Shown here: positions 29,768 through 51,783 of the stretch, piece by piece
Layout of the letters: every line of letters begins with the position of its first letter
How positions within the stretch are numbered: the first letter of the stretch is position 1
DNA from: Promethearchaeota archaeon
Lineage (GTDB): Archaea > Asgardarchaeota > Lokiarchaeia > Sigyniarchaeales > SOKP01
Direction of reading: 5' to 3'
Length of the DNA: 64,000 nucleotides
Assembly: GCA_048938895.1 (NCBI GenBank)
Contig: JBHLLU010000001.1
Span: 1 to 64,000, forward strand
Position numbers and translations under genes: made by a program
Notes under the pieces: generated by a model
Databases searched by the model: none
The model's input: the letters and a program-made list of their open reading frames with translations, nothing else
What the model was told of the DNA's origin: nothing

Positions 29768-29860
29768 TATCCAATAACTTTTTTTTATATTTTTAATATC
29801 TTTTATATTAATTCGTTTTAGTTTTAATTAGAAACTTAATTTTAACGGTTGTTCACAATC

Positions 29861-30649: not shown

Positions 30650-30651
30650 TC

Positions 30652-31653: not shown

Positions 31654-31780
31654 TTTTAACCTCTTAAGTATATCTTAAATTCAGATTTCATAAATATTGA
31701 AGATAGAATTATATTAATTTATCAGAATAATTGAAGCTTAAAGGCCTCTAAGAATGTTTATTAAATACCTATAATTCTTT

Positions 31781-35678: not shown

Positions 35679-36440
35679 TTAAGTTCTTCTATGAATTATC
35701 GTTCTTATTCTTGTTACATCATCTATTGTTAAATTGCGTTTCATATTTTTTTGCTCAAATCGCATATACCCTTTATGATTAATTCCTTGGCATAGATATT
35801 TTTTTGAGTCATCAAGGATAACTTCTTTTCCAAAAATTTGAGAGTGTTCATTGTATTCTTGAATTAAGGTCTTTATCACCATTAAATTATTTTCTGTAAT
35901 TGGAGAATAATATTTATTTGCATAAAAGCATATTTTTTTAGCAAATTTATCAATAGAAACTGGCTTCTTTAGTACATCTTTTATAGATACTGACTTGGAA
36001 CTTAAGCCTTCTGGCATTTTTTTACTTGAATTATTTAAATTTACACCTATACCGATCAAAATATAATTTACTTGAGAGCTTACTATATAATCAATTAATA
36101 TTCCTGCGAGTTTTTTATTTTCATATAAGATATCATTTGGCCACTTAATTTGTGTTTTTAAATTATACTCATTTTCAATAACAAACCTTATTAATGTTGC
36201 AGTAAAAAAATGAAACAATGCTAATTGCGACTTACTCAAAGATGACGTTGATGCTCCAAGAGTAGCCCAAAAACCCCCTTCTGGAGAATACCAATCGTTC
36301 TGCTTTCTTCCACGACCCTTTGATTGTGTTTTTGCAATTAAAAGAAGAGATGAATAATAATCATATTTAAGGTAATCCATTATACTATCTTGGGTAGAAG
36401 TGGTTTGATTAATGTGGATGATCTTTATTTTTTGAAACAT
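35679..36440 (-). CDS. birA: Biotin--[acetyl-CoA carboxylase] ligase (no HTH)
   Basis: STQ, QSKGRGR...W.SP, IKWPND, KLAGIL, GIGVN. Confidence 0.95.
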   Translation of the reverse strand: MFQKIKIIHINQTTSTQDSIMDYLKYDYYSSLLLIAKTQSKGRGRKQNDWYSPEGGFWATLGASTSSLSKSQLALFHFFTATLIRFVIENEYNLKTQIKWPNDILYENKKLAGILIDYIVSSQVNYILIGIGVNLNNSSKKMPEGLSSKSVSIKDVLKKPVSIDKFAKKICFYANKYYSPITENNLMVIKTLIQEYNEHSQIFGKEVILDDSKKYLCQGINHKGYMRFEQKNMKRNLTIDDVTRIRTIIHRRT

Positions 36441-36836
36441 GGGTCAATGTTAAATCCTGCTTAAAAGAGAAATTAATGCAATAAATATGGCGATTAATAT
36501 AAATTGTTTCTATATTAAATTATCTGATTTTTTATCATACAAATTCCCATCTCAATATGAATGCACAGTATGAATATATATAAAATCTATCAACTTTCAA
36601 AATGAAACTTTTAGTGAAAGCTTGTTGAAATTTGAAAATAACGAAAAGATTTAATGATACCTTAATTATCTTCCCATAAAATATTTGATTATTGAATTAT
36701 TAAAAAATTGAAGAATTTTTAACAAAATATGGTTAAATCTGTAATACTATTAATAGTGTGTATTCAAGTATAAATTTTATAAATATACTTTTGATAAAAA
36801 TAATAACTTGTTTATTTAAATAAATATCAGATTATT

Positions 36837-38408
36837 ATGACATTGAAAGATGAGAAATCTAATGATAACTTTGAAATAGCAGAAAAGTTGCAAGAGCTTA
36901 GAAATGAGTCTAAGTTAGGGGGTGGAAAAGATAGAATTGATCTTCAACATAAAAAGGGCAAATTAACTGCCCGAGAAAGAATTGAATTGTTAATAGATTA
37001 CGGTTCGTTTAATGAAATTGACTCATTTGTTAAACATCAATCTAATAATTTTGATTTAGTAGATAAGAAATTTCTCGGGGATGGAGTAATTACCGGTTAT
37101 GGTACAATAGAAGGAAGAAAAGTTTTTATTTATAGTCAAGATTTTACTGTGTTAGGGGGAACCATAGGGAAAGCTCATGCTCAAAAAATATGTAAAGTTA
37201 TGAAATTTGCTCTAAAAATGGGTTGCCCAATTATCGGTTTAATAGATTCGGGAGGAGCACGTATACAAGAAGGAGTAAATGCTTTAGATGGATTAGCAGA
37301 AATTTTTTATCAAAATGTTAGAGCATCTGGGGTCATTCCTCAGATTTCTGTTATATTAGGCATTTCTGCTGGGGGAGCTGCTTATAGCCCCGCATTAACA
37401 GATTTTATAATTATGGGTGGAAAGAATACTTCTATGTTTATTACAGGACCCGAAGTGATAAACTCGGTAACTGGTGAAAATGTCACTTTTTCAGAATTAG
37501 GAGGTTCTAAAATTCATTCGTCTGTCTCTGGTGTGTGTCATAAGGCTCTAGACACTGAAGAGGAAGCAATAGAATTCACAAAAAAATTATTATCATATTT
37601 ACCCTCAAATAATTTAGATGATGTCCCTCATTGTTTAGAAGAAATTCAAGTAGATGATGCCTATTTATTGGATCGATTGGTGCCAGAGGATGAAAATGAA
37701 CCTTATGATATGAAAAAGGTAATAGATGTAATAGTAGATCAAAATTCTTTTTTAGAACTATATCCTGAGTGGGCAAAGAATATTGTAATTGGGTTTGGGA
37801 GAATAGAGAATCAAACTGTGGGTCTAATAGCAAATCAGCCTATGTTCCTTAGTGGTGCTCTAGACTACAATGCCTCAGATAAGGCTACAAGATTTATTAG
37901 GTTTTGTGATGCATTTAACATACCTCTCCTTACATTAGTAGATGTTCCGGGTTTTTTGCCAGGAGTGAAACAAGAATATTCTGGAATTATTAGGCATGGA
38001 GCTAAAATGCTTTTTGCATATTCGGAAGCAACGGTATTAAAAATCACTGTCATTATACGAAAGGCATATGGTGGAGCTTATATTGTGATGAGTTCAAAAC
38101 AATTAGGATCTGATGTTAATATAGCCTGGAAATCAGCTCAAATTGCTGTAATGGGTGCTGAGGGTGCGTGTAAGATTTTATTTCGTAATCATTTGAATGA
38201 AGTTGAAGATCCCGATATTCTATTAAAAGATTTTAGTGAGAAATATAAGAGAGAATTTTCAAATCCTTTCCGAGTCGCAGAAAGAGGACAAGTGGATAAG
38301 GTTATCTTTCCACATGAAACTCGAAATGAAATTATTAAAAGTCTGAAATTTTTTGAATCAAAACGGAAACTGCCTCCTCGAAGAAAACATGGGATTTCTC
38401 CAGTTTAA
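36837..38408 (+). CDS. Acyl-CoA carboxylase carboxyltransferase subunit (AccD/PccB-like)
   Basis: KGKLTARERI, QDFTVLGG, DSGGARIQEG, DVPGFLPG, RKAYGGAY. Confidence 0.95.
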   Translation: MTLKDEKSNDNFEIAEKLQELRNESKLGGGKDRIDLQHKKGKLTARERIELLIDYGSFNEIDSFVKHQSNNFDLVDKKFLGDGVITGYGTIEGRKVFIYSQDFTVLGGTIGKAHAQKICKVMKFALKMGCPIIGLIDSGGARIQEGVNALDGLAEIFYQNVRASGVIPQISVILGISAGGAAYSPALTDFIIMGGKNTSMFITGPEVINSVTGENVTFSELGGSKIHSSVSGVCHKALDTEEEAIEFTKKLLSYLPSNNLDDVPHCLEEIQVDDAYLLDRLVPEDENEPYDMKKVIDVIVDQNSFLELYPEWAKNIVIGFGRIENQTVGLIANQPMFLSGALDYNASDKATRFIRFCDAFNIPLLTLVDVPGFLPGVKQEYSGIIRHGAKMLFAYSEATVLKITVIIRKAYGGAYIVMSSKQLGSDVNIAWKSAQIAVMGAEGACKILFRNHLNEVEDPDILLKDFSEKYKREFSNPFRVAERGQVDKVIFPHETRNEIIKSLKFFESKRKLPPRRKHGISPV

Positions 38409-38428
38409 ATTACAAACAGTCGATACAT

Positions 38429-41400
38429 ATGAAAAAGAAAGAAAACATCCAAAAAATTTTCAAAAACAAAATTCCTGTTTGGGGCTATTCACCTAAAGGA
38501 GTAACTGATCCCTCACTTTCAATTCAATTATGTCAAGCCGGGGGAATTGGATTAATTGATTTGGAAGGTCTTAATCAAGATCAATGTCAAAATCAAATTG
38601 ATAAACTTTTTTCATCTTTGACTTCCGATCATTTATGGGGTATTCGAATTTCTAATCACAACCTTTTAAATACCCTCAACTTTCGAGATGTTATCCCGAT
38701 TATCGTTTGTGCTTTCTCCCCAAATAAAGATGATATTCAAAGTATGCAAAAAAATTCAAAATTACTTCTTTCTGAAGTCTCATACTTAGAAGAAGCTTAT
38801 GAAACTGCAGAATGGTCAGATTTGTTTCTTGTAAAGGGTCACGAGGCGGGAGGGATTGTTGGCACTAAGAATAGTTTTATACTTATTCAAGAATTTCAGA
38901 AAGCTGGCCTTTCCTTCATTATTCAAGGTGGTTTTGGAGTTTATAATGTATGTTCAGCTTTTATTGGGGGTGCTATAGGTGTTGTATTAGAAAGCCAGTT
39001 ATATTTACTCCCTGAATGCCCGTTGAGTCCAGATTTTAAGAATTACATTAAAACTATTGATGAAAATGATTTCTATATTGTGCAAGAAACGTCTCGATAT
39101 AATTACCGTTTAATTGGTAAATTAGCTAATAAATCAATCCGTACAATAAAGAGTTTTGAACAAAAAAACTATTCAAACGTAAATAATGATTTCGATACTA
39201 ATTACTTAACTCGTAAAGATGATTTTCATCAAGTAATTAAGAAGTTTATAGATAAATTTCCTCTTTATTCTGATTCAGATCCAAAGCATTCATTCTTACC
39301 AAGCGATCATGGTATATGTTTTGCTAATTTCATTTTGACTAAATTTCAGAATTTAGAGAATTTCCTTACGAATATAATTAATATTATTACTAATCAAATT
39401 AAAAATTGTATAAACAATTGGCCATTTACCAAGAATTCTGAGTTTGCGACAAAGTTAGGCATAAAATATCCAATTATTCAGGGACCAATGGCAAATATTT
39501 CTGATAATTTGTCTTTTGCGAGAAAAATATCAAATAATGGAGCCCTCCCTATTTTAGCGCTAGGAGGACTATTACCGGACGAAACATCTGAGCTGTTATC
39601 AAACTGTAATGCTGAAAAATTATCAGAGAATCCATATGGTTGTGGTATCATAGGTTTAGATGCCGTGAAACCTCGTAGAGATGAACATCTTAGATGTATT
39701 TCAAAATTTGGTCCTGAAATTATCTTAATTGCTGCGGGTACAATTGATCTTGGCGTTCAGGTTAAAAATTCAGGTAATATAGTTTTAATCCATACACCTG
39801 CATTATCTATGTTTAAAGAGGCATTAAAAAGAAATCTTAATTACATGATATTAGAAGGTAATGAGTGTGGGGGGCATGTTGGAACACTTTCCTCTTTCAC
39901 TCTCTGGGAACATGTTTTAGAATATATGGATATAGAACGAAAGAATTTTATACAGAAAGTAAATATAATTTTTGCAGGGGGGATAATTAATGGGGTAAGT
40001 TCAGCAATGCTAGCAGGAATGATATCTAATCATTTAGATATAATCACTCCAGGTATCCAGATGGGAACTGCTTATCTTTTAAGTGAAGAAATTGTTACAA
40101 CTAAGGCATTATCCCCTGTTTATCAAGAATTACTTTTAAATAATACATTTACAAATGTTATTGGTGTTACTGTAAATACTCGAGCTAGAGTAATCCCTTC
40201 GGAATTTTCGCTTTATACTATTAAAAATGAGTATTTACGTAAATCAAATGGAATTTCTTTATCCCAAAGAAAGAAATTGTATGAAGAAGACAATTTAGGT
40301 GCTCTTAGAATTGCTTCTAGAGCTGAGATTTGGAACGAGAATCATGAAAAAGTGAGTGGGACGTCTCAATTTATACCGATCTCAACTGAAGAACAATTAA
40401 CCAAAGGTGTTTTTATGACAGGTGATTCAATTTCCCTGCAAAAAACAATTAGAAGTATCCCTCAAATTCATTCTGATATAATTGAAGAAGGTTTGAAATT
40501 TATCAGAAAAAACTCAAATTATATTTTAAAAGAGACGTTAGGTCGTGTGCCTATGAATAAAGAAAAATACTTAAAAAAAATACAATCTATCGGAAATAAA
40601 ATAGCTATTGTAGGAATGGGTGGTTTGTTTCCAGATGCCGAAAACATTCCACAATTTTGGGACAACATCATTAGCAAAAAATATTCAATTACGACAGTCC
40701 CAAAAGATAGATGGGATTCTGATATATTTTATGATAGTGATCATTCCATTCCTGATAAAACATATACAAAGATCGGTGGATTTGTGAAAAAATTTGAATT
40801 TAAATCTATTAAGTATAGAATTCCTCCTAAAATGGCGGATAGGATGGATTTAGTTCAGAAGTGGGCAATAATTACTGCAGAAGAAGCTTTAATTGATGCT
40901 GGTTATCCTATTGATGGGAAAAAACGATTATCTATAGCTACTATTGTTGGTAACTCTTCAGGAGGAGATACGCAGCGTATTAGCAACAAACGGATATTAT
41001 TTAACGAAATTAAATATAGATTAAATGAAGCAAGTTCCCAAATGATTTTAAAACCTGAAGAAAAAGAAAATCTTCTTAAATTCCTCGAAAGTAAAATTAT
41101 TAATCATATTCCTGTGATTAATGAGGATACGATGCCTGGTGAATTGGCAAACATAATTGCAGGAAGAGTAGCAAACGTGTTTAATTTAACTGGTAAGAGC
41201 ATGACTACTGATGCTGCATGTGCTTCAAGTTTAGCTGCGATTGACACAGCAGTAAACGGATTATTAGTCAAGGATTATGATACAGTTCTTGTAGGAGGGG
41301 TTGATAGTTCGATGGACCCTCAAACATATATTAAATTCTGTAAGATAGGTGCCTTGTCTGAAGATGGTACTTATCCTTTTGATTCTCGTGCAAATGGATT

Positions 41401-44400: not shown

Positions 44401-47400
44401 GATTGAGAGAACATATGATATTACTAGAGAAGAATTGGCAAAGGAAGGAATGTTTGTGAGTCATGAAACTTACTCTCCAGCCCGAGGAGGAAGTGCTGAA
44501 TCGGAATTGATTGCTTTAAGAAACACGTTTGGAAATTATGCTCAAGATATGGTTATTATCAACACGAAAGGATATACTGGTCATGCAATGGGGGCTGGAA
44601 TTGAAGAAGCTGTCGCTATCAAGTCACTTGAAAAAGGGAAAATCCCACCAATAGCAAATTTGAATAGAATTGACCCAAATTATTCAAATTTCAACTTTTC
44701 AGCTGGAATAAATGAAAGGAAGAAATATGCTTTACGTTTTGCTGCAGGATTTGGATCTCAATTAGCAATTGTTCTATTTCGTCTAAAGTCATTCAATAAC
44801 CGTTTTGCAAATCCAAATTACCAAAAATGGCTTCAAAGCATAGGTGGAGACGAAAAATTAATATTTATCGATGGAAGACTTCTAAAAATGAAAACTGAAC
44901 GTGTTCCCCTCAAAAAAGCTACTATCTTTTCTACAGAAACAACTGAAAGTTCCCAGAAAGTAATTCCTTCTGGAACAAGTGAAATTCTGAATGAGATCAA
45001 ATACATAATTAGTTTAAAAACTGGGTATGATCCAGCTGATATTGATGATACATTCGATTTAGAGGAAGATCTAGGAATTGATACTGTAAAACAGGCAGAA
45101 ATATTTGGTGAAATTAAAAAAAAATGGGATATTGAAGTGGATGATTCATTTAATTTAGCAGATTATCGCACAATTAATGAAATTGTCCAAATGTTGAATG
45201 ATTTCTTAAGGGTAGATCTTATAACTGAAAATGATTTTTCTTGTCTCAATGAATTTTCGCTTGAAAAAGAATTAATAAATATAATTTCTGAAAAGACAGG
45301 ATATGATATTGAAGACATCGACATTGAATTTGATTTAGAGGAGGATCTTGGGATTGATACAGTAAAACAAGCTGAGATATTTGGGGCGCTTCGGAGTAAT
45401 TTGAACATCCCAGAGGACACTGAAATCAATCTATTAGGATTAGGAAGTATTAAAAATATAATTCAAAAAATACAAGTATTAATGAGTGACAAGATTATTG
45501 ATGGAAAATTAACTCAAAATATCTATACTCCTATTGAAGTACCTGATGACATAAAACAAATAAATAATTTAGTAAAAAAAATTATTGCAGAAAAAACAGG
45601 GTATGACCTTAATGACATTGATGACTTATATGACTTAGAGGAAGACTTGGGAATTGATACAGTGAAACAGGCCGAAATCTTCGGAGAATTACGTAATCAT
45701 TACAAACTAGAAGATTCCATTGAGATTAACATATCTGAAATTCGCACTCCAAATGATATTACTCAATTTATAATGCAATATTTCAATGAGAAATCCAAAA
45801 TCGTTGAAAAAGACTTAGGAACGACTGGAAGCGTAGATAAAGTTCAAGAAGAGATAAAAGAGGAAAAACAAGATAGTATTTATGTTTCACAAGTTGTCCC
45901 CTCTCAAATTTTTAAATTAGAAACCCCAGAAATAGATTTGAAATATAAAAGTACGGATACTTTACTCCTTAATATTAATTTAGGGTTATCAAATTACGGA
46001 AAATTGATAAAAAGTTTTGAAAACTATGGCTTAAAAATTCAAGTATTAAATGTTAATAGTGATGAAAATTTTTCTAGTGATCTTAACAATAAAAAACATG
46101 ATTCTCTATTCAATACTGATTTTAAAATACTTCTATTGGTCACTCCAGATAATAATCAATACACTATAGATGATAGTTTAAGCATCTTTGATAATCTATT
46201 CCTTATTTTTCAATCATTAAATTTATCAATAATCGAAAGAATATTAGTGCTTTCTCCAGAAACTACTTTTGGTTGGGAAGAAGGAGCCAATCCTCTTTCT
46301 GCTAGTATAAGTGCCTTTATAAAAACAATAAATCGCGAATTTAAAATTCCGATTAAACTAATTTCTTCAAAGAATCTAAGTAAAATTTCTCAGGAGTTTC
46401 TTACTTGGGATACTGTTGAAGAAGTTTCCTATGTAGATAATTTTCGTTATACATTATTAAGACAGAAAATTGAGGTACTCCCAGAACAGAATCCTTTATC
46501 AATAACGGAAGAAGATGTATTATTGGTCACTGGAGGTGCACAAGGAATCACTTTTGCATGCATCGATGAATTAACAAACTATACTAAACCACAGTTAATT
46601 CTTATGGGACTAGCTTCTTACGAAAATTCATTGAACGAATATTTAAATTATACTCCAGAAATGTTGAATGAGAAAAAGCTAGAATTGGTTAACAAGTTGA
46701 AATCTGAACATAAAAGAGTAACTCCTGTCATGATAAATAAAGAATGGAAAAATTTTCTCGACAAACTAGATACTCTAAGAAATATTGAAAAATTGAGAAG
46801 TAAAGGTCTTAAAGTGCAATATTTTGCGGGGGATATTACCGATGATGAATTTGTAAGCACTACACTCCAAAAAAGTTATAAACAAAATAAAAATCCAATA
46901 ACAATTGTTATCCATGGAGCTGGAATTGAAGAATCAAAAAATTTCTTAAATAAAAAATTAAATGTGGCTCATAAAGTTGTTGATGTCAAAGTTGGAGGAT
47001 TTTCAAATATTCTGAAGCATATAAAGCTTCAAGATGTTAAATATTTCATAGCCTTCTGTTCAGTTGCAGGTCGTTATGGAAATCAAGGACAAATAGATTA
47101 TGCTTTTGCAAATTCTTATTTATCTCGGTTAGCTTGGAAATTCAATCAAGATAAAATTCCTTTTCTTATTTTTGATTGGACTGCTTGGGCTGACATTGGA
47201 ATGGCAACTCAGGGTTCGACTCTTCAAATTCTTACTCAAGCAGGTGTTAGGCCTGTCCCATCCAAAACTGGTGTTAAAATATTTACAAAGTTAGTACTAA
47301 ATAATTTTACTGGTGAATACGTCATTGCTGGAGAATTAGGAATATTTGAGGAGAAGCTTCGTATAGAGGAGGTTATTAGCAAGTTAGAATATCCTATGTT

Positions 47401-48973
47401 AGAGAGAATTAATTATCAGTCAGCTCGTATTATTGGATACAACACAATTGATTCTAAATTCGATGTATATCTTCTAGATCACCAAATTCAACGGAAACCA
47501 GTATTTCCAGGAGTAATGGTTTTAGAAACATTTGCAGAATTTTATCATCGAATGTTTGATAAACCATTAACCTCAATCTCTAATGTAAATTTTCTTACGC
47601 CCTTGAAAATCCCAATAGATAAAACTATTAATATAGAACTAATTTTTAATAAATCTAATAACGAAATTTCTTTCCAATCAAAGACTTTTCCCACTATCTT
47701 GAAAGGAAAACCTCTTGTTAAAGAACGTTTCAATGCTAAGTTCAATGAACCTACAAATGAGCTGAAGTGGAAAAAAGAATCTATTTCGGAGCCGTTAATA
47801 TCACTACTCGAGAAAACCGAAATTTATGAGCTTTTCTTTCATGGACCAAAATTTCAGGTTTTAAAAGAAGTTATTCAATTAGAAAAAGAAAAAATTGTTA
47901 CGATGGTTGACTTACCTACAGCCCCTCTTATTAATAATAAGGAGGATCAATTTCAAATTAAACCTTTGATACTTGAAAGTGTTTTTCAAACCGCTGCACT
48001 TTTTGATTTTATAATTAATGGTTATCTTTCACTTCCCTCTAAAATTTCAATCTTGAAAATATTATCAAATCAAAAGCCTAAATATATAGTCGCTAAATTT
48101 TTAAAGAGGGATGATGAGAAATCTTATTACAATTCAGTAGTGCTAAGTGAAGATCAAGAAATAATAGTAATAATGGAAAATTTAGAAATTATCCATGCAC
48201 CAATGGCAAAAAATATCTCTCCTAATCTATCTAATTATTTAGGTACATTAAAGGAGTATTATCACCTTAAAAATAACATAAATAAGCATGAGATTCATGT
48301 CCTTCCTATCACAAAGATACATAATTTATATCAAACCAATCCTAAATTTTTGGATTATTACCTTACTGAACAAGAAATAGATAACTCCAAGCGTTTTAGA
48401 AATTTAAAAAGAAAAATCGAATATTTTTCTGGAATCATCGCAGCAAAAGAATTGTATTTTAGAAATTCGTACAAGCGTGAGTCTTATCACGATATTGAAA
48501 TTCAAAAAGATGATAAAGGTAAACCATTTTATTTTTCAAATAAATTGAATCAAATTATTCCGCTTAATCTTTCAATTAGTCATTCAAACGAATTTTCAGT
48601 TGCAATTAATGGTAAAAATTTGGTTGGTATTGATCTAGAGATAATTGAATTCCGATCATCTTCATTTTACAAAGAGGTATTTACTGAATTAGAGAGAAAT
48701 GCTATTTCAGAAGATAATCAATTAGGAACAATTTACTGGACAGCTAAAGAAGCCTTCTCAAAAGCAATAGGGGAGGGTTTTAATATTAATTTTAAAGATT
48801 TTGAATTGAAATACGAGGAAAAGCACAAAAAATTCACAATATCATTCAAAAATGAAAAATCTGAATTCAATGATAATCTTAGATCTTTACAATTGGGAGT
48901 TGATTATACCAAGAAGTATGTTTTATCATATTGCGAGTTGAAACCATTTAAAGAAATTCCAACAATCCAGTGA
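38429..48973 (+). CDS. Type I FAS/PKS megasynthase: 2x FMN enoyl-reductase-like, KS, AT, second KS, 3x ACP, KR, DH, PPTase
   Basis: KGHEAGG and QGPM/EGNECGGH/GIQMGT (FabK/NMO barrels); DAACASS/HGTST/KSQIGHL (KS); GQGSQ/GHSLG/AFHS (AT); NAACAST/SHET/TGHAMG (KS2); 3x DLGIDTVKQ; TGGAQGI/DYAFAN (KR); DHQ...FPG (DH); SISHS/GIDLE/WTAKEA (PPTase). Confidence 0.95.
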   Translation: MKKKENIQKIFKNKIPVWGYSPKGVTDPSLSIQLCQAGGIGLIDLEGLNQDQCQNQIDKLFSSLTSDHLWGIRISNHNLLNTLNFRDVIPIIVCAFSPNKDDIQSMQKNSKLLLSEVSYLEEAYETAEWSDLFLVKGHEAGGIVGTKNSFILIQEFQKAGLSFIIQGGFGVYNVCSAFIGGAIGVVLESQLYLLPECPLSPDFKNYIKTIDENDFYIVQETSRYNYRLIGKLANKSIRTIKSFEQKNYSNVNNDFDTNYLTRKDDFHQVIKKFIDKFPLYSDSDPKHSFLPSDHGICFANFILTKFQNLENFLTNIINIITNQIKNCINNWPFTKNSEFATKLGIKYPIIQGPMANISDNLSFARKISNNGALPILALGGLLPDETSELLSNCNAEKLSENPYGCGIIGLDAVKPRRDEHLRCISKFGPEIILIAAGTIDLGVQVKNSGNIVLIHTPALSMFKEALKRNLNYMILEGNECGGHVGTLSSFTLWEHVLEYMDIERKNFIQKVNIIFAGGIINGVSSAMLAGMISNHLDIITPGIQMGTAYLLSEEIVTTKALSPVYQELLLNNTFTNVIGVTVNTRARVIPSEFSLYTIKNEYLRKSNGISLSQRKKLYEEDNLGALRIASRAEIWNENHEKVSGTSQFIPISTEEQLTKGVFMTGDSISLQKTIRSIPQIHSDIIEEGLKFIRKNSNYILKETLGRVPMNKEKYLKKIQSIGNKIAIVGMGGLFPDAENIPQFWDNIISKKYSITTVPKDRWDSDIFYDSDHSIPDKTYTKIGGFVKKFEFKSIKYRIPPKMADRMDLVQKWAIITAEEALIDAGYPIDGKKRLSIATIVGNSSGGDTQRISNKRILFNEIKYRLNEASSQMILKPEEKENLLKFLESKIINHIPVINEDTMPGELANIIAGRVANVFNLTGKSMTTDAACASSLAAIDTAVNGLLVKDYDTVLVGGVDSSMDPQTYIKFCKIGALSEDGTYPFDSRANGFVMGEGAGFIVLKRLEDALHDKNKIYAIISGFGGSSDGKGKGITAPNPEGQRLAIERTLENTNLSPSDIQYLECHGTSTIVGDATELSVLSQIFSDRNVNQKLALGSIKSQIGHLKSAAGIASIIKTVLALYNKIIPPSINVSNLNPTINWENAPYYVNTEPTKWSTPENGIRRAGVSSFGFGGTNYHVILEEFLPHLYTNVLTERAEDFPLCEELMYKQFESHQDNSIIPSSTDLCFLFSGQGSQYVGMTRELYEKYQVVKNTLNKANDICKEFGSFNLLKIIFGDNNLSQEENSDKLKQTEFTQPAIYSVEMALVNLFKSKGITPGIVGGHSLGEFAALVTAGVLSFEDGLKTVIRRGISMSELPPGVQCTMAAIFTSPDIVEKTLNELSNEDVSISNYNSTSQTVISGEISAVESIMDAFSKKEIRAIRLNVSNAFHSKYVAHAEEKLKDFLKTIEFKSPQIPVFSNVTGKVYPNDPDKIKSILLKQITSPVRWVDEVLNMYQKGGRKFLELGPKKALFFFTKDILKKYKDIEVNFTLSPKSSEKDHIQKVFDRFSALESISQKERVEIEYPSIKDKKIKISRQAESSIIKRDTLRSNEYLSKIVQLPSFKDFLEEQKVSLSSALMEGFYKYLEKNSTSIDNQFNKGDIDSTPIVITGVGIGLPGKNRKVFDDKNVDDILDGINLIDLVSTESQNQLLQKKIIRLEKSPNGNAKFVSVDDISNVIHLAGQLGEFNPNEDYHLNPKLLNALDITFQMAICAGYDALKDSGIPLVRSTIKTSTGKTLSGDWILPESLQDDTGIIFASAFPGYDNFVEEFRKYSNFDCDQKKSIEENDKNFNRSFLFRVLSMGHSQFAQLIKAKGPNTSTNAACASTPQAIGIAEDWIRNGRCKRVIVITADNVTSRNLFQWIGAGFIASGAATTKNRWEDAVLPFGEGRNGIILGAGASAFVIEQQMEAEARGVKPIVEILGSYFANSAFHGTRLDKDHISQKLEEFIQKIERTYDITREELAKEGMFVSHETYSPARGGSAESELIALRNTFGNYAQDMVIINTKGYTGHAMGAGIEEAVAIKSLEKGKIPPIANLNRIDPNYSNFNFSAGINERKKYALRFAAGFGSQLAIVLFRLKSFNNRFANPNYQKWLQSIGGDEKLIFIDGRLLKMKTERVPLKKATIFSTETTESSQKVIPSGTSEILNEIKYIISLKTGYDPADIDDTFDLEEDLGIDTVKQAEIFGEIKKKWDIEVDDSFNLADYRTINEIVQMLNDFLRVDLITENDFSCLNEFSLEKELINIISEKTGYDIEDIDIEFDLEEDLGIDTVKQAEIFGALRSNLNIPEDTEINLLGLGSIKNIIQKIQVLMSDKIIDGKLTQNIYTPIEVPDDIKQINNLVKKIIAEKTGYDLNDIDDLYDLEEDLGIDTVKQAEIFGELRNHYKLEDSIEINISEIRTPNDITQFIMQYFNEKSKIVEKDLGTTGSVDKVQEEIKEEKQDSIYVSQVVPSQIFKLETPEIDLKYKSTDTLLLNINLGLSNYGKLIKSFENYGLKIQVLNVNSDENFSSDLNNKKHDSLFNTDFKILLLVTPDNNQYTIDDSLSIFDNLFLIFQSLNLSIIERILVLSPETTFGWEEGANPLSASISAFIKTINREFKIPIKLISSKNLSKISQEFLTWDTVEEVSYVDNFRYTLLRQKIEVLPEQNPLSITEEDVLLVTGGAQGITFACIDELTNYTKPQLILMGLASYENSLNEYLNYTPEMLNEKKLELVNKLKSEHKRVTPVMINKEWKNFLDKLDTLRNIEKLRSKGLKVQYFAGDITDDEFVSTTLQKSYKQNKNPITIVIHGAGIEESKNFLNKKLNVAHKVVDVKVGGFSNILKHIKLQDVKYFIAFCSVAGRYGNQGQIDYAFANSYLSRLAWKFNQDKIPFLIFDWTAWADIGMATQGSTLQILTQAGVRPVPSKTGVKIFTKLVLNNFTGEYVIAGELGIFEEKLRIEEVISKLEYPMLERINYQSARIIGYNTIDSKFDVYLLDHQIQRKPVFPGVMVLETFAEFYHRMFDKPLTSISNVNFLTPLKIPIDKTINIELIFNKSNNEISFQSKTFPTILKGKPLVKERFNAKFNEPTNELKWKKESISEPLISLLEKTEIYELFFHGPKFQVLKEVIQLEKEKIVTMVDLPTAPLINNKEDQFQIKPLILESVFQTAALFDFIINGYLSLPSKISILKILSNQKPKYIVAKFLKRDDEKSYYNSVVLSEDQEIIVIMENLEIIHAPMAKNISPNLSNYLGTLKEYYHLKNNINKHEIHVLPITKIHNLYQTNPKFLDYYLTEQEIDNSKRFRNLKRKIEYFSGIIAAKELYFRNSYKRESYHDIEIQKDDKGKPFYFSNKLNQIIPLNLSISHSNEFSVAINGKNLVGIDLEIIEFRSSSFYKEVFTELERNAISEDNQLGTIYWTAKEAFSKAIGEGFNINFKDFELKYEEKHKKFTISFKNEKSEFNDNLRSLQLGVDYTKKYVLSYCELKPFKEIPTIQ
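44980..45785 (+). repeat. Three tandem ACP-domain repeats within the megasynthase
   Basis: KTGYD...DLEEDLGIDTVKQAEIFG repeated three times; Thr codons at 45083, 45359 and 45659. Confidence 0.9.
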
Positions 48974-49761
48974 TAGTAATGAGAAAAGAAGTGATTGAAG
49001 TAGAAGTTCGATCTGAAATTCTGCAAGGAGTACTCTATTTACCTGATGAAAAAGATCCAAAAATTAGTGAATGTAATCCATTTCCAATCGTGATTCGTGT
49101 TAATGGAATGCCTGGTAAATCTCCCGAAGAAGATGAAACGAGATTTGCCCATCTTTTTGTTAACAATGAATTTGCTTATTTCACTTATGATCACCAAGGT
49201 GTGAGGAAAAGTACCGGTATTTTTACTTATTATGACGCTCAAGCAAATATCGAAAATGTAATAAATCAGTTAGTGCATCATCCTGAGATGAATCCTATTA
49301 AAATTGGCCTGTTAGGAGAAAGTTTTGGGGGTGCAATGGCTTTTTGCCATACTGTAAGAGATAAACGTGTTAAATGTCTTGCTATACGTTCTCCTGTTTT
49401 TGATACAGAAATTATTCCAAAGAATCCTCTTTTTAAATTTTTCATCAAAGCATTAACACGTAATAAAAAAATGCGATTTCCCGAAGGAGATCTCAAAAAA
49501 AAGTATGCTGAACAAACAAGACAATATAATCCCAATAGATTAGCGGATAAATTAGCAAAACCTTTCTATCTGATTGCAGGAAATAAGGATGTTTTATTTC
49601 CAGAATCTGGTTTTCATCAACTCTTTAATAAAGTCAAGTCTGAAAATAAAAAAATTGAAATAATTGATGGAGCTGATCATAACTTTACAGATAAAAATCA
49701 TTTTCACCTAATGCGTAAAAATATTATTGATTTCTTTAGATTTCATCTTATAGTAAATTAA
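48970..49761 (+). CDS. Alpha/beta hydrolase, putative standalone thioesterase
   Basis: GESFG nucleophile elbow, GNKD, GADHNF triad; start overlaps the synthase stop (GTGA). Confidence 0.8.
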   Translation: MIVMRKEVIEVEVRSEILQGVLYLPDEKDPKISECNPFPIVIRVNGMPGKSPEEDETRFAHLFVNNEFAYFTYDHQGVRKSTGIFTYYDAQANIENVINQLVHHPEMNPIKIGLLGESFGGAMAFCHTVRDKRVKCLAIRSPVFDTEIIPKNPLFKFFIKALTRNKKMRFPEGDLKKKYAEQTRQYNPNRLADKLAKPFYLIAGNKDVLFPESGFHQLFNKVKSENKKIEIIDGADHNFTDKNHFHLMRKNIIDFFRFHLIVN

Positions 49762-49773
49762 ATTGAAATTAGG

Positions 49774-50271
49774 ATGCCGAAAAAAGTTAAATTTCGAGGA
49801 AGGAATTATATAGTTACTCCATTAGATAATGGGAAAATAAAAGTAGATGACCATATTTATGCCCCGGTAGTCATTCAAGAAACAGAGAATTTATTTCGAG
49901 TAACATTTGAAGATTGTCAGTTTAATTTGGAATTTATAAACGGGGTTTTATATTTAGAGGGTGAAGAAATCGATATTGAAATTAAACCATATTTAAAATC
50001 AGTAGATAATAACTATGAAAGCCCACAAATCACGGACGTAATTATAAAAGCTCCTATTCCAGGGAAAATATTAGAAATCCACGTCGAAGAGGAGGAATAT
50101 ATCGAAAAGGAACAGTTATTATTAATTTTAGAAGCAATGAAAATGAAAAATCGAATATTGTCTCCAAGAAAAGGGAAGATAATCCAAATATTAGTGAATG
50201 AAGGGGATATCGTTGGACAAGATCAAAAGTTAATTAAAATTGAAAGTAGAAATAATGTAAAGGGTATATAA
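49774..50271 (+). CDS. accB: Biotin carboxyl carrier protein
   Basis: APIPGKI, LEAMKM biotinylation motif, GDIV. Confidence 0.93.
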   Translation: MPKKVKFRGRNYIVTPLDNGKIKVDDHIYAPVVIQETENLFRVTFEDCQFNLEFINGVLYLEGEEIDIEIKPYLKSVDNNYESPQITDVIIKAPIPGKILEIHVEEEEYIEKEQLLLILEAMKMKNRILSPRKGKIIQILVNEGDIVGQDQKLIKIESRNNVKGI

Positions 50272-50292
50272 TCATTGATTTATTATTTTTTT

Positions 50293-51783
50293 TTAACGTA
50301 TTTGCTCTATTTTAGCGACATCTCGCCATTTATTTGATTTTTTCTTTTGTGTTTCTTCAGGTTGAGTTGATAATTTAAATTGCTTAAATAATTGAAAAAC
50401 TGCTGCCAATTTTTTTCTTTCTAAATCTTTTAAATTATTAGCAATGTTTGTTTTATTTAAGAAATCAGTTGATAAATCTCCCTTTCTAAATTCACGAGAA
50501 TCTACTATTACTTTATGTAAATCTAAATTCGTTTTTATTCCTGAAATAACTAATTCTTTTAGGGTATGTTTAGAGAGATTGATTGCCCTTTTTCGATTTC
50601 TACCCCACACCACCAATTTCCCTATCAATGAGTCAAAATCATGAGGAACTACATAATTAGGGTACAAATAACTATCAAAACGCACTTTTGGTCCCCCTGG
50701 TATGATTAAATTTGTAATTTTTCCATGTTGGGGAAAGAATGAATTATATGGATCTTCAGCATTTATCCTATATTCTATAGCATGTCCATGTAATGAGATT
50801 TCCTCTTGAATATAATTTAATGGTTTATTTGAGGCAATGCTTATTTGTTCCTCAACCAAATCTATTCCTGTTACCATTTCTGTAACAACATGTTCTACTT
50901 GGATTCTTGGATTTACTTCATTAAAATAGATATTACCCTCCTTCCATAGAAATTCTGCTGTTCCCACATTTGAATAATTTAATTCACGAGCTAACTGACA
51001 AGTTTTATCTCCTAATTTAGAGATTTCATCCCTTGTTAAAAATGAGGGTGCTTCCTCAATAAGTTTTTGATGAGATCGTTGGATAGTACATTCCCGATCT
51101 CCTAAATATATAATATTACCAAAATTATCTCCAATAAATTGAATTTCTACATGACGAGGTGCCATAATAGACTTTTCAATAAAAACTTCATTGCGACCAA
51201 AAAACTTTGATCCCATTTCTTGACAACCTTGGAGTGCAATGCCCATTTCTTCTTCAGATTCAACAATTTCCATTCCTCGACCACCACCTCCAAAGGCTGC
51301 TTTTATTATTACAGGATATCCGATCTTATCTGCTATTAATTTAGCTTCCTCTAAACTACGAATAAATCCATCTGAACCAGGTAAAACGGGTAAACCGACA
51401 CTTTTTGCTAGGATTTTTGCTTTAATTTTATTACCTAAAAATTCAATGGTATTTGGGCTTGGACCGATAAAAATCTTACCAAGATTAATAATTTGTTTTG
51501 CAAATTCTGCATTTTCGCTCAAAAAACCATATCCTGGATGGATTGCATCTGCATCACACCGTTTAATTATTTCAACTAGTTTTGAGATGTTAAGATATGT
51601 ACCCTGAATTGATTCATCTCCTAAATTATATGCCTCATCTGCCATTTTTACGTGAAGAGAGTTTTTGTCTGACTCAGAAAAAATTGCTATTGATTTAATC
51701 TCTTTTGATCGACATGCTCTGATAACTCTAACTGCAATCTCTCCACGATTAGCAATTAAGACAGATTTGATCATACAACACAA
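50293..51783 (-). CDS. accC: Biotin carboxylase
   Basis: LIANRGEIAVR, HPGYGFLSEN, GGGGRGM, RECTIQR, EVNPRIQVEH, RINAEDP. Confidence 0.96.
   Translation of the reverse strand: MCCMIKSVLIANRGEIAVRVIRACRSKEIKSIAIFSESDKNSLHVKMADEAYNLGDESIQGTYLNISKLVEIIKRCDADAIHPGYGFLSENAEFAKQIINLGKIFIGPSPNTIEFLGNKIKAKILAKSVGLPVLPGSDGFIRSLEEAKLIADKIGYPVIIKAAFGGGGRGMEIVESEEEMGIALQGCQEMGSKFFGRNEVFIEKSIMAPRHVEIQFIGDNFGNIIYLGDRECTIQRSHQKLIEEAPSFLTRDEISKLGDKTCQLARELNYSNVGTAEFLWKEGNIYFNEVNPRIQVEHVVTEMVTGIDLVEEQISIASNKPLNYIQEEISLHGHAIEYRINAEDPYNSFFPQHGKITNLIIPGGPKVRFDSYLYPNYVVPHDFDSLIGKLVVWGRNRKRAINLSKHTLKELVISGIKTNLDLHKVIVDSREFRKGDLSTDFLNKTNIANNLKDLERKKLAAVFQLFKQFKLSTQPEETQKKKSNKWRDVAKIEQIR

What the first reader, a model, noticed from the sequence alone, without database searches (positions are those of the whole stretch)
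35679..51783. Self-contained type I fatty-acid/polyketide synthesis system in an Asgard-type archaeon
Seen: biotin ligase, carboxyltransferase, a 3514-aa megasynthase, a translationally coupled alpha/beta hydrolase, BCCP and biotin carboxylase. Together these cover extender supply, carrier activation, elongation, full reduction and release. Established: archaea build isoprenoid ether lipids and generally lack ACP-dependent FAS; type I FAS/PKS are bacterial and eukaryotic. The flanks are clearly archaeal/Asgard (leuS, aIF-1A, Rab-like GTPases) and similarly AT-rich. Inference: this organism can make long acyl chains de novo, which bears on the lipid divide in eukaryogenesis. I cannot verify from here whether it has been described.
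Basis: partly seen in the sequence, partly recalled or inferred. Interest (0 to 1): 0.95.

Follow-up and report, generated by a model that had tools for sequence, protein, structure and literature searches.

The report
Fatty-acid megasynthase module in Asgard archaea
An Asgard (Loki-type) archaeon carries a conserved six-gene unit, one giant bacterial-style fatty-acid/polyketide synthase plus its own malonyl-CoA supply, which suggests that relatives of the eukaryotic ancestor can build acyl chains in a way archaea were thought to lack.

Summary
Window 35679-51783 holds BirA, a carboxyltransferase, a 3514-aa synthase, an alpha/beta hydrolase, BCCP and biotin carboxylase. The synthase reads NMO-like/FabK-type ER, KS, AT, a second KS, three ACPs, KR, DH and a fused PPTase, with every catalytic motif conserved.

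It is not a chimera. The same six genes lie together in all 8 Asgard loci compared, one of them from a closed genome. The synthase was found in 70 of 400 genomes of the phylum. It is near-universal in three families whose sequences cluster with Heimdall/Kari-labelled proteins, and patchy in the window's own Loki-type family (12 of 134).

It belongs to a bacterial-plus-archaeal branch of PfaA-like "secondary lipid" synthases and is not a PUFA synthase. Its nearest sister clade is of Desulfomonilaceae type.

Unexpectedly, every ACP carries Thr where the phosphopantetheine Ser should be. This holds family-wide, and the genome's only PPTase is the fused one.

Synthesis of reduced acyl chains is inferred, not shown. 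A membrane role is unsupported, because PlsY and PlsC do not track the module. Public databases and gene-cluster surveys already list the gene as a "PKS". My searches found no functional or evolutionary analysis of it.

The parts
35679..36440 (-). Biotin-protein ligase (BirA type, 253 aa)
   Evidence: PF03099 E 2e-18. TIGR00121 at 132 bits, above the cut-off of 83. Conserved beside the module in 7 of 8 loci.
36837..38408 (+). Acyl-CoA carboxylase carboxyltransferase subunit (PccB/MmdA type, 523 aa)
   Evidence: PF01039 E 4e-179. Best NCBIfam hit is mmdA at 712 bits, below the cut-off of 999. Present in exactly the 8 of 41 relatives that hold the synthase.
38429..48973 (+). 3514-aa iterative type I synthase (P0001)
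   Evidence: Domain scans. Full-length orthologues at 66-74% identity in the genus and 51-53% in a second family.
38429..39418 (+). NMO/FabK-like barrel 1 (aa 1-330), lacks the GGH histidine
   Evidence: PF03060 E 6e-9 on the piece. Motif GHEAGGIVG, less conserved than barrel 2. Modelled with barrel 2 at pLDDT 81 and pTM 0.87.
39434..40528 (+). FabK-type enoyl reductase (aa 336-700)
   Evidence: PF03060 E 5e-15. TIGR03151 FabK E 1e-26, below cut-off. E476-G-x-E-C-G-G-H483 is invariant in 14 of 14 aligned sequences. Foldseek top hits are FabK enzymes, TM 0.82-0.84 on the target.
40574..41998 (+). Ketosynthase 1 (aa 716-1190), C931/H1065/H1104
   Evidence: PF00109 and PF02801. The triad is invariant or at least 95% conserved in 59 archaeal-clade and 44 bacterial homologues.
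42104..43018 (+). Acyltransferase (aa 1226-1530), GHS1324LGE, R1349, AFH1430S
   Evidence: PF00698 E 2e-44. FabD model at 246 bits against a cut-off of 261. Motifs conserved.
43346..44758 (+). Ketosynthase 2 ('CLF position', aa 1640-2110), keeps C1864/H2012/H2052
   Evidence: Weak PF00109, PF02801 and PF08545 hits. Cys-His-His conserved. Predicted to pair with KS1: ipSAE 0.85 against a best control of 0.00.
44981..45778 (+). Three tandem ACP domains with LGIDT(V)KQAEIFG; T2219, T2311, T2411
   Evidence: PF00550, 3 stretches. The Thr aligns with the phosphopantetheine Ser of PigH, AcpM and other ACPs. The Thr motif is in 119 of 120 listed homologues.
46520..47194 (+). Ketoreductase (aa 2698-2922)
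   Evidence: PF08659 E 8e-29. GGxxGIT and the S2878/Y2891/N2895 block are conserved.
47438..48190 (+). PKS-type double-hotdog dehydratase (aa 3004-3254), H3018...P3027, E3183xxxQ3187
   Evidence: PF21089 and PF14765. Motif conservation.
48473..48934 (+). Fused Sfp-type phosphopantetheinyl transferase (aa 3349-3502)
   Evidence: PF01648 E 2e-16 and PF22624. GID3402LE and W3437xxKE are conserved. It is the only PF01648 hit in the whole genome.
48970..49761 (+). Alpha/beta hydrolase (about 260 aa; probable start 48979), candidate chain-release enzyme
   Evidence: PF12146 E 2e-15. GES115FG, D204 and H234 are invariant in 13 of 13 sequences. AF2 model pLDDT 89.6. Nearest folds are lipases, monoacylglycerol lipases, feruloyl esterases and the PKS thioesterases DcsB and GrgF.
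49774..50271 (+). Biotin carboxyl carrier protein (165 aa), EAMK123M
   Evidence: PF00364. Motif found. Present in 8 of 8 loci.
50293..51783 (-). Biotin carboxylase (AccC type, about 493 aa)
   Evidence: PF00289, PF02786 and PF02785. accC models at 563-601 bits, just below their cut-offs. Present in 8 of 8 loci.

Best explanation
This is a six-gene, self-sufficient acyl-chain factory that belongs to the archaeon.

Proposed mechanism, all steps inferred from domains:
1. BirA biotinylates BCCP.
2. Biotin carboxylase, BCCP and the carboxyltransferase turn acetyl-CoA into malonyl-CoA.
3. The synthase's own PPTase domain loads phosphopantetheine onto its three ACPs, most likely on the conserved Thr.
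4. The AT transfers malonyl to the ACPs.
5. KS1, probably paired with KS2 within the same polypeptide, performs decarboxylative condensation.
6. KR, DH and the FabK-type FMN enoyl reductase fully reduce each unit.
7. The cycle repeats.
8. The adjacent Ser-Asp-His hydrolase releases or transfers the finished chain.

The expected product is a saturated or largely reduced long acyl chain. The enzyme has no FabA-type isomerase, so it is not a PUFA synthase.

What is shown:
- Gene content, conservation of catalytic motifs, and conserved synteny.
- Phyletic distribution.
- Absence of any other KS, ACP, PPTase or FabA/FabZ in the genome.

What is inferred:
- Every chemical step, the extender unit, the Thr attachment site, the product and its cellular use.

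Evolution: the module sits in a cohesive archaeal clade. That clade is sister to a Desulfomonilaceae-type bacterial clade with the same fused architecture. It is near-universal in families whose sequences cluster with Heimdall- and Kari-labelled proteins, and patchy in the Loki-type order, where it nests beside the Heimdallarchaeaceae-labelled clade.
For: Domains and motifs:
- Domains were called.
- All catalytic motifs are conserved across 59 archaeal-clade and 44 bacterial full-length homologues.
- The ER model's best structural matches are FabK enoyl-ACP reductases.
- BCCP carries EAMKM.

Synteny and co-occurrence:
- The synteny BirA-CT-synthase-hydrolase-BCCP-BC recurs across genus, family and distant families.
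- Of all ORFs in 36-40 kb around 8 loci, only these six gene families recur in at least 4 loci. Four are in 8 of 8 and two in 7 of 8.
- CT is present in exactly the 8 of 41 relatives that hold the synthase and in 0 of the other 33.
- Phylum-wide, 67 of 70 synthase-positive genomes have a CT hit.

Closed system in this genome (98.7% complete):
- The only KS hits are in the synthase, apart from one weak thiolase match.
- The only 3 carrier domains and the only PPTase are in the synthase.
- There is no FabA/FabZ hit.

Thr as the attachment site:
- It aligns with the Ser of solved ACPs.
- 119 of 120 listed homologues carry it.
- In an index-free search, 108 of the 150 best tandem-ACP proteins carry only the Thr motif, 35 only the Ser motif and 7 both.
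- Ser and Thr copies alternate in otherwise identical repeats of P0104, P0028 and P0071.

Not a chimera:
- The contig is 185.9 kb with ordinary composition.
- One orthologous locus lies in a closed single-contig genome.
- Contigs of three further samples cover 30 of 30 bins and bridge the gene junctions. They come from the same study as the possible source, so this is not independent support.

KS pairing:
- KS1-KS2 ipSAE 0.85, best control 0.00.
- That mark was reached by 58 of 80 solved complexes and 2 of 110 mismatched pairs.
- The three runs agree in at least 86% of contacts and the partner's pLDDT is at least 82.
- KS dimers and KS-CLF pairs have been solved, so the pass may only reflect likeness.
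Against: - No activity, product or expression data exist here.
- A Thr at the carrier site is unprecedented to my knowledge. From recall, the E. coli ACP S36T mutant is not modified by AcpS, so the carriers could in principle be inactive.
- The best NCBIfam hits all fall below their curated cut-offs: PfaA 882 against 1010, FabD 246 against 261, FabK 94 against 453, accC 601 against 739.
- The CT's best model is methylmalonyl-CoA decarboxylase alpha. CT homologues also occur in 124 Asgard genomes without the synthase, so that gene family has other roles. Imachi et al. 2020 read these gene families as markers of propionate fermentation (passages).
- The hydrolase's fold neighbours are generic esterases and lipases. 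Release by hydrolysis is therefore only one option.
- The module is patchy in the window's own family, 12 of 134. It does not track PlsY or PlsC. This argues against a core membrane role.
- Versions in family f15 lack the N-terminal ER.
Confidence: 0.6

Rival explanations
1. The same machinery makes a specialised 'secondary lipid' or polyketide rather than ordinary fatty acids. Examples would be a partly reduced, hydroxylated or very long chain, a hydrocarbon precursor or a glycolipid tail. It would serve an accessory role such as envelope, storage, signalling or stress protection.
For: - The family is PfaA-like. Its domain order equals the uncharacterised Type R secondary lipid synthases, KS-MAT-CLF-ACP(3-6)-KR plus PPTase.
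- Two conserved active KS domains and tandem ACPs are typical of PUFA-type and heterocyst-glycolipid-type synthases (from my own knowledge).
- Distribution is patchy in the Loki-type family, 12 of 134.
- The module does not co-vary with PlsY or PlsC.
- Some versions lack the ER.
Against: - KR, DH and a FabK-type ER are all intact and conserved, so full reduction is the default reading.
- There are no FabA-like isomerase domains.
- No tailoring genes are conserved next to the module.
- Near-universality in three families (27 of 31, 11 of 12, 12 of 12) looks more like housekeeping there.
Confidence: 0.3
2. The biotin genes are not an extender-supply system for the synthase. Instead they are a propionyl-CoA carboxylase or methylmalonyl-CoA (de)carboxylase of propionate metabolism that merely lies nearby. 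Alternatively they make methylmalonyl-CoA, giving methyl-branched chains.
For: - The CT's best NCBIfam model is mmdA.
- CT homologues occur in 191 of 400 Asgard genomes, 124 of them without the synthase.
- Imachi et al. 2020 scored these gene families as propionate markers (passages only; the supplementary trees were not seen).
Against: - In the window's order, CT occurs only where the synthase does: 8 of 8 positives against 0 of 33 negatives. Family f1 has 11 of 134, all synthase-positive.
- The six genes stay together over large evolutionary distances.
- An ATP-dependent biotin carboxylase is present, which a decarboxylase does not need.
- I saw no membrane MmdB-type subunit among the conserved neighbours.
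- The AT carries the AFHS-type motif. From recall, that motif goes with malonyl rather than methylmalonyl specificity.
Confidence: 0.07
3. The synthase is a carrier-dead relic. Thr cannot be phosphopantetheinylated, so the protein is inactive or does something unrelated to chain building.
For: - The canonical site is Ser in every solved ACP that aligned.
- My literature searches found no report of Thr-linked phosphopantetheine.
Against: - A 3500-aa protein keeps every catalytic motif, and the Thr itself, across archaea and bacteria.
- The only PPTase in the genome is fused to it.
- Ser and Thr interchange within single tandem arrays.
Confidence: 0.03
4. Assembly or binning artefact: a bacterial gene cluster joined to, or binned with, an archaeal contig.
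For: - The estimated contamination of the genome is 7.49%.
- The enzyme family is mainly bacterial.
Against: - The same module with the same neighbours occurs in 8 of 41 relatives, one of them a single-contig 4.36-Mb genome.
- It occurs in 70 of 400 genomes of the phylum.
- Ras-family GTPase genes lie on both sides, within the same 185.9-kb contig.
- Composition is typical of the genome.
- The gene tree follows the genome families.
Confidence: 0.005

Closest known systems
PfaA and the PUFA synthases (Shewanella/Moritella pfaABCDE; thraustochytrid orfA-C)
   Same: - Iterative type I KS-AT-tandem ACP-KR-PKS-type DH core.
- An FMN, NMO-family enoyl reductase (PfaD type).
- A dedicated Sfp-type PPTase.
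- The best NCBIfam model is TIGR02813 PfaA.
- The ACP motif is the PfaA-like LGIDxxK.
   Different: - The score is below PfaA's cut-off, 882 against 1010.
- There are no FabA-like dehydratase/isomerase domains in the protein or the genome, so no route to cis double bonds.
- ER and PPTase are fused into the same polypeptide.
- The second KS keeps its Cys.
- The ACP site is Thr, not Ser.
- A dedicated acyl-CoA carboxylase is linked to it.
Uncharacterised 'secondary lipid synthase' Types R and S of Shulse & Allen 2011 (PMC3098273, passages read)
   Same: - Type R is one pfaA homologue with KS-MAT-CLF-ACP(3-6)-KR plus a PPTase gene. In one genome an ACC gene lies in between.
- Type S, in Desulfobacterium autotrophicum, was proposed as a possible core FAS.
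- The domain order here matches. Bacterial relatives here include Desulfobacterium- and Desulfobacter-labelled proteins.
   Different: - That paper lists no archaea: 0 occurrences of the word in its main text.
- Here the ER didomain, DH and PPTase are fused in, and a whole ACC plus BirA plus hydrolase set is linked.
- I could not compare sequences with the named Type R and S members.
FabK (enoyl-ACP reductase II) and trans-acting ERs (PfaD, DfnA, MlnA)
   Same: - FMN TIM-barrel fold.
- Foldseek top hits are FabK, with target TM 0.82-0.84. DfnA, MlnA and PfaD rank lower.
- The ExGGH motif is conserved.
   Different: - Here it is a tandem of two barrels fused to the synthase.
- The first barrel lacks the His.
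- The FabK model scores far below its cut-off.
Fungal and CMN-bacterial type I FAS
   Same: An analogy only. They also combine an FMN-dependent TIM-barrel ER with an in-cis PPTase (fungal alpha chain; from my own knowledge). The M. tuberculosis FAS ER appears as a weak structural hit.
   Different: - Domain order and the KS, AT and DH types differ.
- KS1's best PDB matches are bacterial modular PKSs at 464-300 bits. Animal FAS scores 196 bits.
- There is no sign of specific kinship with eukaryotic FAS.
ACP-independent archaeal fatty acid synthase complex (thiolase/DUF35/SDR; bioRxiv 10.1101/2024.07.05.601840, passages read)
   Same: It is also proposed to give archaea, Asgard included, de novo fatty acids.
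   Different: - It uses entirely different chemistry and proteins: CoA-bound intermediates, no ACP and no malonyl-CoA.
[quoted passage not shown] The module described here is an exception.

Membership tests
PUFA synthase (Pfa) | PfaA-type core (KS-MAT-tandem ACP-KR-DH) recognised by TIGR02813 above its cut-off | tested here: not met
   The domain order is present. However, TIGR02813 scores 882.5 bits against a cut-off of 1010.1.
PUFA synthase (Pfa) | FabA-like dehydratase/isomerase domains (PfaC) that install cis double bonds | tested here: not met
   There is no PF07977 hit in the synthase or anywhere in the genome. The same search rings in 9 of 14 control genomes.
PUFA synthase (Pfa) | NMO-family FMN enoyl reductase (PfaD) | tested here: met
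   PF03060 hits. The structural neighbours are FabK, DfnA, MlnA and PfaD. Here the ER is fused and duplicated.
PUFA synthase (Pfa) | Tandem ACPs with a Ser attachment site (LGIDSIK) | tested here: not met
   The tandem ACPs are present, but the site is Thr in all three. Ser-type arrays form a separate set, 35 of 150.
Type R/S secondary lipid synthases (Shulse & Allen 2011) | Single pfaA homologue KS-MAT-CLF-ACP(3-6)-KR with an associated PPTase | tested here: met
   The domain order is KS-AT-KS2-ACP3-KR with a fused PPTase, compared with the paper's description. The match is by architecture only.
Type R/S secondary lipid synthases (Shulse & Allen 2011) | KS falls in the Type R or Type S clade of their KS tree | not tested
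Three-subunit biotin-dependent acyl-CoA carboxylase | Biotin carboxylase, BCCP with a (A/V)MKM lysine, and a PccB-type carboxyltransferase, encoded together | tested here: met
   Pfam hits. EAMKM motif found. Synteny in 8 of 8 loci. Substrate (acetyl- or propionyl-CoA) was not testable here.
Phosphopantetheine-dependent carrier protein (PF00550) | Conserved Ser in the DSL motif as the attachment site | tested here: not met
   PF00550 is matched, but the aligned residue is Thr. Whether the Thr is modified cannot be tested with these tools.
Animal or fungal type I FAS | Characteristic domain order and KS/MAT kinship | tested here: not met
   The domain order differs. Animal FAS ranks far below bacterial PKS KS-AT structures in the PDB sequence search.

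The most novel reading that the evidence does not exclude
Asgard archaea run a true ACP-dependent, malonyl-CoA-fed fatty acid synthase whose carrier is a phosphopantetheinyl-threonine, a post-translational linkage I found no report of. This applies above all to the Heimdall-type families, where the module is near-universal. The module was already present in the common ancestor of those families. The archaeal lineage leading to eukaryotes could then make fatty acyl chains itself, before or independently of the mitochondrial symbiont. That would supply the missing acyl source for the PlsC and PlsY homologues long noted in Asgard genomes.
Probability: 0.25. Interest if true: 0.92.

Novelty: new variant of a known kind. 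Interest (0 to 1): 0.74.

Why it matters
Textbook and current literature hold that archaea lack ACP, ACP synthase and FAS I/II (passages). They also treat the origin of the fatty-acid membranes of eukaryotes as a central gap in eukaryogenesis models.

This finding offers three things:
1. **An intact, conserved module.** It is self-sufficient and ACP-dependent. It occurs in 70 of 400 Asgard genomes searched and in nearly all sampled genomes of three families.
2. **A testable candidate acyl source.** It comes down to six genes that can be expressed together.
3. **A possible reinterpretation.** The biotin-enzyme genes were used earlier as propionate-fermentation markers in Asgard genomes.

Independently, the family-wide Thr at the carrier site points to a possible new variant of one of the most conserved post-translational modifications in metabolism. 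It is also widespread in bacteria.

The caveats are equally important. The product and its expression are unknown. The family has a bacterial sister clade. The module's patchiness in the Loki-type family fits an accessory lipid as well as a membrane one.

Tried and rejected
Tools that were closed or gave nothing:
- No RNA holder was listed for the synthase gene, so expression could not be examined.
- Read laying gave only short contigs. The four 'joints' it listed have sides of 20-23 letters, and I treated them as spurious. The runs X2-X4 belong to the same study as the possible source sample, so they are not independent.

Literature searches (all 10 used):
- 'Asgard' + 'PUFA synthase': 0 papers.
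- 'Lokiarchaeum' + 'polyketide synthase': 0 papers.
- The motif GIDTVKQ anywhere in text: 0 papers.
- Two searches for Thr in place of the phosphopantetheine Ser: 0 papers, and 3 irrelevant papers.
- Broader searches gave only a passing mention of a Heimdallarchaeota PKS cluster (PMC7472256, passages) and survey-level 'PKS in Asgardarchaeota' statements (PMC11051675, passages).
- PMC11573180, PMC12139934 and PMC13036324 held nothing on this gene in the passages I read.
- Supplementary files were not read. The supplements of Imachi 2020, Chen 2020 and the gene-cluster surveys may list this gene.

Leads that went nowhere:
- I looked for a DUF35 partner of the upstream thiolase (ORF 26535-27020). 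There was no Pfam hit even at E 1.
- The Protein Atlas search gave only leads: clusters in Thermoplasmatota, Actinomycetota, Planctomycetota and Haptophyta.
- The listing of cluster members named only 3 of 10 proteins.

Readings I considered and dropped:
- Kinship with fungal or animal FAS. It is rejected as kinship on the PDB ranking and kept only as an analogy.
- CT as exclusive to the synthase phylum-wide. rejects this (191 of 400 genomes).

Limits of the counts and trees:
- In the FastTree and IQ-TREE 'quick' trees the archaeal clade has support 92 and 89, which is not 'starred'.
- L019 and P0103 are long branches.
- One search used 66 rows. These were 31 genome-handle rows, the window, and 34 chosen out of the 131 rows. 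I chose them for labels and clade coverage.
- The 59/44 'archaeal/bacterial' split was made by rank and clade. It includes unlabelled proteins.

Full report
**What is there.** The window is the first 64 kb of a 185.9-kb contig, the longest of 174 in a 4.65-Mb genome. The genome has 31% GC, 98.7% estimated completeness and 7.5% estimated contamination. ORF listing and family scans confirm the six genes:
- BirA, 35679-36440(-)
- a PccB/MmdA-type carboxyltransferase, 36837-38408(+)
- a 3514-aa synthase, 38429-48973(+)
- an alpha/beta hydrolase, 48970-49761(+)
- BCCP, 49774-50271(+)
- biotin carboxylase, 50293-51783(-)

BCCP has the EAMKM biotinylation motif. The hydrolase probably starts at the ATG at 48979, 5 nt after the synthase stop. 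That Met aligns with the first Met of 5 of the 8 orthologues.

**Anatomy of the synthase.** Scanning it in pieces gave this order:
1. NMO-like barrel 1
2. NMO/FabK-type barrel 2
3. KS1
4. AT
5. a second KS-like domain
6. three ACPs
7. KR
8. a PKS-type double-hotdog DH
9. an Sfp-type PPTase

I aligned 103 full-length homologues, 59 from the archaeal clade and 44 bacterial. The grouping was by rank and clade and includes unlabelled proteins. These residues are conserved:

| Domain | Conserved residues |
|---|---|
| KS1 | C931 / H1065 / H1104 |
| AT | GHS1324LGE, R1349, AFH1430S |
| KS2 | C1864 / H2012 / H2052 |
| KR | GGxxGIT and the S/Y/N block |
| DH | H3018...P3027 and (E/D)xxxQ |
| PPTase | GxD and WxxKE |
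| ER barrel 2 | E-x-G-G-H483 |

Barrel 1 lacks the His. An AlphaFold model of residues 1-705 had pLDDT 81 and pTM 0.87. Its best PDB matches are FabK enoyl-ACP reductases, with TM 0.82-0.84 on the target. NMO enzymes and the trans-acting ERs DfnA, MlnA and PfaD rank lower.

KS1 and KS2 are predicted to pair:
- ipSAE was 0.85 against a best control of 0.00.
- That mark was reached by 58 of 80 solved complexes and 2 of 110 mismatched pairs.
- The three runs agree in at least 86% of contacts, and the partner's pLDDT is at least 82.
- KS dimers and KS-CLF pairs have been solved, so this shows likeness, not proof.

**An unexpected hallmark.** All three ACPs read LGIDTVKQAEIFG. In alignments to solved carrier proteins (PigH, AcpM, other ACPs) the Thr sits exactly on the phosphopantetheine Ser.

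- All Asgard orthologues I read carry the Thr.
- So do 119 of the 120 best full-length homologues, bacterial ones included. The exception is a fragment without ACPs.
- That search picks candidates by shared words, so I repeated it with one ACP in an index-free HMMER search of 1.84 billion representatives.
- Of its best 150 proteins, all with tandem ACPs, 108 have only the Thr motif LG(I/V)DT(V/I)K. Another 35 have only the PfaA-like Ser motif LGIDSIK, and 7 have both. Some of the 7 are regex side-hits.
- In P0104, P0028 and P0071, Ser and Thr copies alternate in otherwise near-identical repeats.

In this genome the three ACPs are the only PF00550 hits, and the fused PPTase is the only PF01648 hit. 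The simplest reading is that Thr is the attachment site and the in-cis PPTase serves it. This is an inference. My searches found no report of such a linkage.

**Is it really archaeal?** Yes, on several lines:
- Full-length orthologues lie in 5 of 25 genomes of the genus, counting the window's own, and in 3 of 3 genomes of a genus in a second family. One of these is a single-contig 4.36-Mb genome.
- The order BirA-CT-synthase-hydrolase-BCCP-BC is kept while the flanks shuffle.
- The same unit is found in five genomes of three distant families.
- I clustered all ORFs in 36-40 kb around 8 loci. Only these six gene families recur in at least 4 loci. Four are in 8 of 8 and two in 7 of 8.
- The window's flanks hold four Ras-family GTPases, PAS histidine kinases and a class I aminoacyl-tRNA synthetase.
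- GC and tetranucleotide make-up of 35679-51783 sit at the 62nd and 64th percentile of same-size windows of the genome.
- Contigs of three further runs cover 30 of 30 bins and bridge the gene junctions. They come from the same study as the possible source.

**Distribution.** I searched with a 1440-aa KS-AT-KS2 query at E <= 1e-30. It found 70 of 400 genomes of the phylum:

| Family | Genomes with a match |
|---|---|
| f1 (the window's family) | 12 of 134 |
| f2 | 3 of 14 |
| f12 | 1 of 1 |
| f13 | 27 of 31 |
| f14 | 2 of 3 |
| f15 | 11 of 12 |
| f16 | 1 of 22 (a 421-aa FabF-like ORF, not a megasynthase) |
| f18 | 12 of 12 |
| all other families | 0 |

Named proteins in the same clades are labelled as follows:
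- Lokiarchaeum GC14_75, 'Lokiarchaeota', 'Promethearchaeota' and 'Hodarchaeota' for the f1/f2 clade.
- Heimdallarchaeaceae for f13.
- Kariarchaeaceae, plus one 'Methanobacteriota' label, for f12 and f15.
- 'Heimdallarchaeota' or 'Asgard group' for f18.

Relatives labelled Thalassarchaeaceae and Thermoplasmatota also exist.

**Trees.** I built KS1 trees with FastTree (131 rows) and with IQ-TREE 'quick' under LG+C20 (66 chosen rows).
- The archaeal sequences form one group, with support 92 and 89 (not starred).
- That group is sister to a Desulfomonilaceae-type bacterial clade with the same fused architecture, PPTase included. The joint branch has support 95-96.
- A Desulfobacter/Desulfoluna/Spirochaete clade lies further out.
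- Genome families are cohesive: f18 at 100, f15 at 96, and f1+f2 at 98.
- The f1+f2 clade is sister to f13+f14 with support 100.

Combined with the patchy presence in f1, this suggests two histories. The module has long residence in the Heimdall- and Kari-labelled families. It probably entered the Loki-type order secondarily, or was lost there many times. The direction of the bacterial-archaeal transfer is not resolved.

**The carboxylase link.**
- Among 41 relatives, the CT is found in exactly the 8 genomes that hold the synthase. It is found in none of the other 33, always as a single adjacent copy.
- In f1, CT is in 11 of 134 genomes, and all 11 are synthase-positive.
- Phylum-wide, 67 of 70 synthase-positive genomes have a CT hit. 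But 124 genomes have a CT homologue without the synthase. The gene family therefore has other jobs elsewhere.
- Imachi et al. 2020 used methylmalonyl-CoA decarboxylase, BCCP and a biotin ligase as propionate-fermentation markers and as ancestral Asgard traits (passages only, supplements unseen). For genomes like this one, those genes are better explained as part of the synthase module.

**What it is not.**
- It is not a PUFA synthase. TIGR02813 scores below its cut-off. No FabA-like domain exists in the protein or the genome. The ACP site also differs.
- It is not close to animal or fungal FAS.
- Its domain order matches the uncharacterised 'Type R' secondary lipid synthases, KS-MAT-CLF-ACP(3-6)-KR plus PPTase, once with an ACC gene in between.
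- Its bacterial relatives recall 'Type S' of Desulfobacterium autotrophicum. Shulse & Allen 2011 suggested Type S might be that organism's core FAS.
- That paper mentions no archaea.

**Does it feed membranes?** This is unknown, and the evidence is mixed.
- PlsY-type hits occur in 22 of 41 relatives and PlsC-type acyltransferases in 38 of 41. This fits the literature on Asgard plsY and plsC.
- They do not track the module. The three f2 genomes with the module have no PlsY hit, and most f1 genomes with PlsY and PlsC lack the module.
- The hydrolase has an invariant Ser-Asp-His triad. Its fold is nearest to lipases, monoacylglycerol lipases, feruloyl esterases and the PKS thioesterases DcsB and GrgF. 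That fits release or transfer but does not decide between them.

**Prior art.**
- The gene has been public since the first Lokiarchaeum genome, under automatic names such as 'Pks15/1', 'SDR family oxidoreductase' and 'malonyl CoA-ACP transacylase'.
- Chen et al. [quoted passage not shown]
- Gene-cluster surveys list PKSs in Asgardarchaeota.
- I found no paper that analyses it as a fatty-acid-type synthase, notes its ACC linkage, maps its distribution, or mentions the Thr carrier. The searches cover only the held library, and supplements were closed.
- Current papers still state that archaea lack FAS I/II and nearly always lack ACP and ACP synthase. Imachi et al. 2020 state that the cultured Loki archaeon lacks genes for ester-type lipids.

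**Verdict.**
The module is an intact, conserved, self-contained acyl-chain synthase with its own extender supply, and it is widespread in Asgard archaea.
- Its product, its expression and its role in membranes are untested. The enzyme family itself is a known, mostly bacterial kind.
- The Thr carrier site and the near-universality in the Heimdall-labelled families are the most novel points.

Noticed in passing
window 27111-33010 (+): Just upstream of the module lies a thiolase, an acyl-CoA dehydrogenase, ETF beta, ETF alpha and a second (SCP-x-type) thiolase. This is a beta-oxidation or reverse beta-oxidation set beside a chain-building set. No DUF35 partner was detected in ORF 26535-27020.
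   Followed up: partly
window 20702-21895(-), 55967-56521(+), 61150-61713(+), 61867-62418(+): Four Ras-family small GTPase genes lie in 64 kb. One of them (397 aa) has a long N-terminal extension. This is a typical Asgard signature.
   Followed up: no
window 53245-55140(-) and 56534-59068(-): Two paralogous winged-helix plus TPR proteins. A homologue of the first lies near the module in the four same-genus genomes examined (loci L040, L042, L045, L047), but was not detected in the other family's loci. It may be a local regulator.
   Followed up: partly
window 9491-11860(-), 15140-17407(-), 22014-25412(-): Three large multi-PAS histidine kinases lie in the left flank.
   Followed up: no
proteins P0104, P0028, P0071, P0175: Tandem ACP arrays that mix Ser-type and Thr-type copies within one polypeptide. 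They are natural 'experiments' for whether the two residues are equivalent.
   Followed up: partly
protein P0167: A 5050-aa protein of the anaerobic amoebozoan Mastigamoeba balamuthi is among the best ACP hits. Its source labels it 'putative 2-nitropropane dioxygenase'. It carries seven Ser-type LGIDSIK ACPs, so it is a eukaryotic PfaA-like megasynthase.
   Followed up: no
G095 locus (L058/L059) and proteins P0061, P0063, P0064, P0066, P0068, P0073-P0075, P0077 and others: The versions labelled Kariarchaeaceae or 'Methanobacteriota' start directly at KS1 and lack the N-terminal ER didomain. In the G095 stretch no hydrolase or BirA was found beside the synthase. I did not look for a separate ER gene.
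   Followed up: no
G073 locus (L060/L061): A second carboxyltransferase and a second biotin carboxylase gene lie directly upstream of the module. This is a local duplication of the carboxylase.
   Followed up: no
loci L022-L039 (Balneolaceae, Ignavibacteriaceae, Chlorobiaceae): The bacterial loci pulled in by peptide patterns carry only distant KS relatives, 26-29% identity over KS1. They have no adjacent carboxylase genes, and I used them as the outgroup.
   Followed up: partly
whole genome G000: Stand-alone NMO/FabK-like ORFs of about 330 aa occur in G000 (C20:123-593) and in many relatives that lack the synthase. They are about 30% identical to the synthase's ER region.
   Followed up: no
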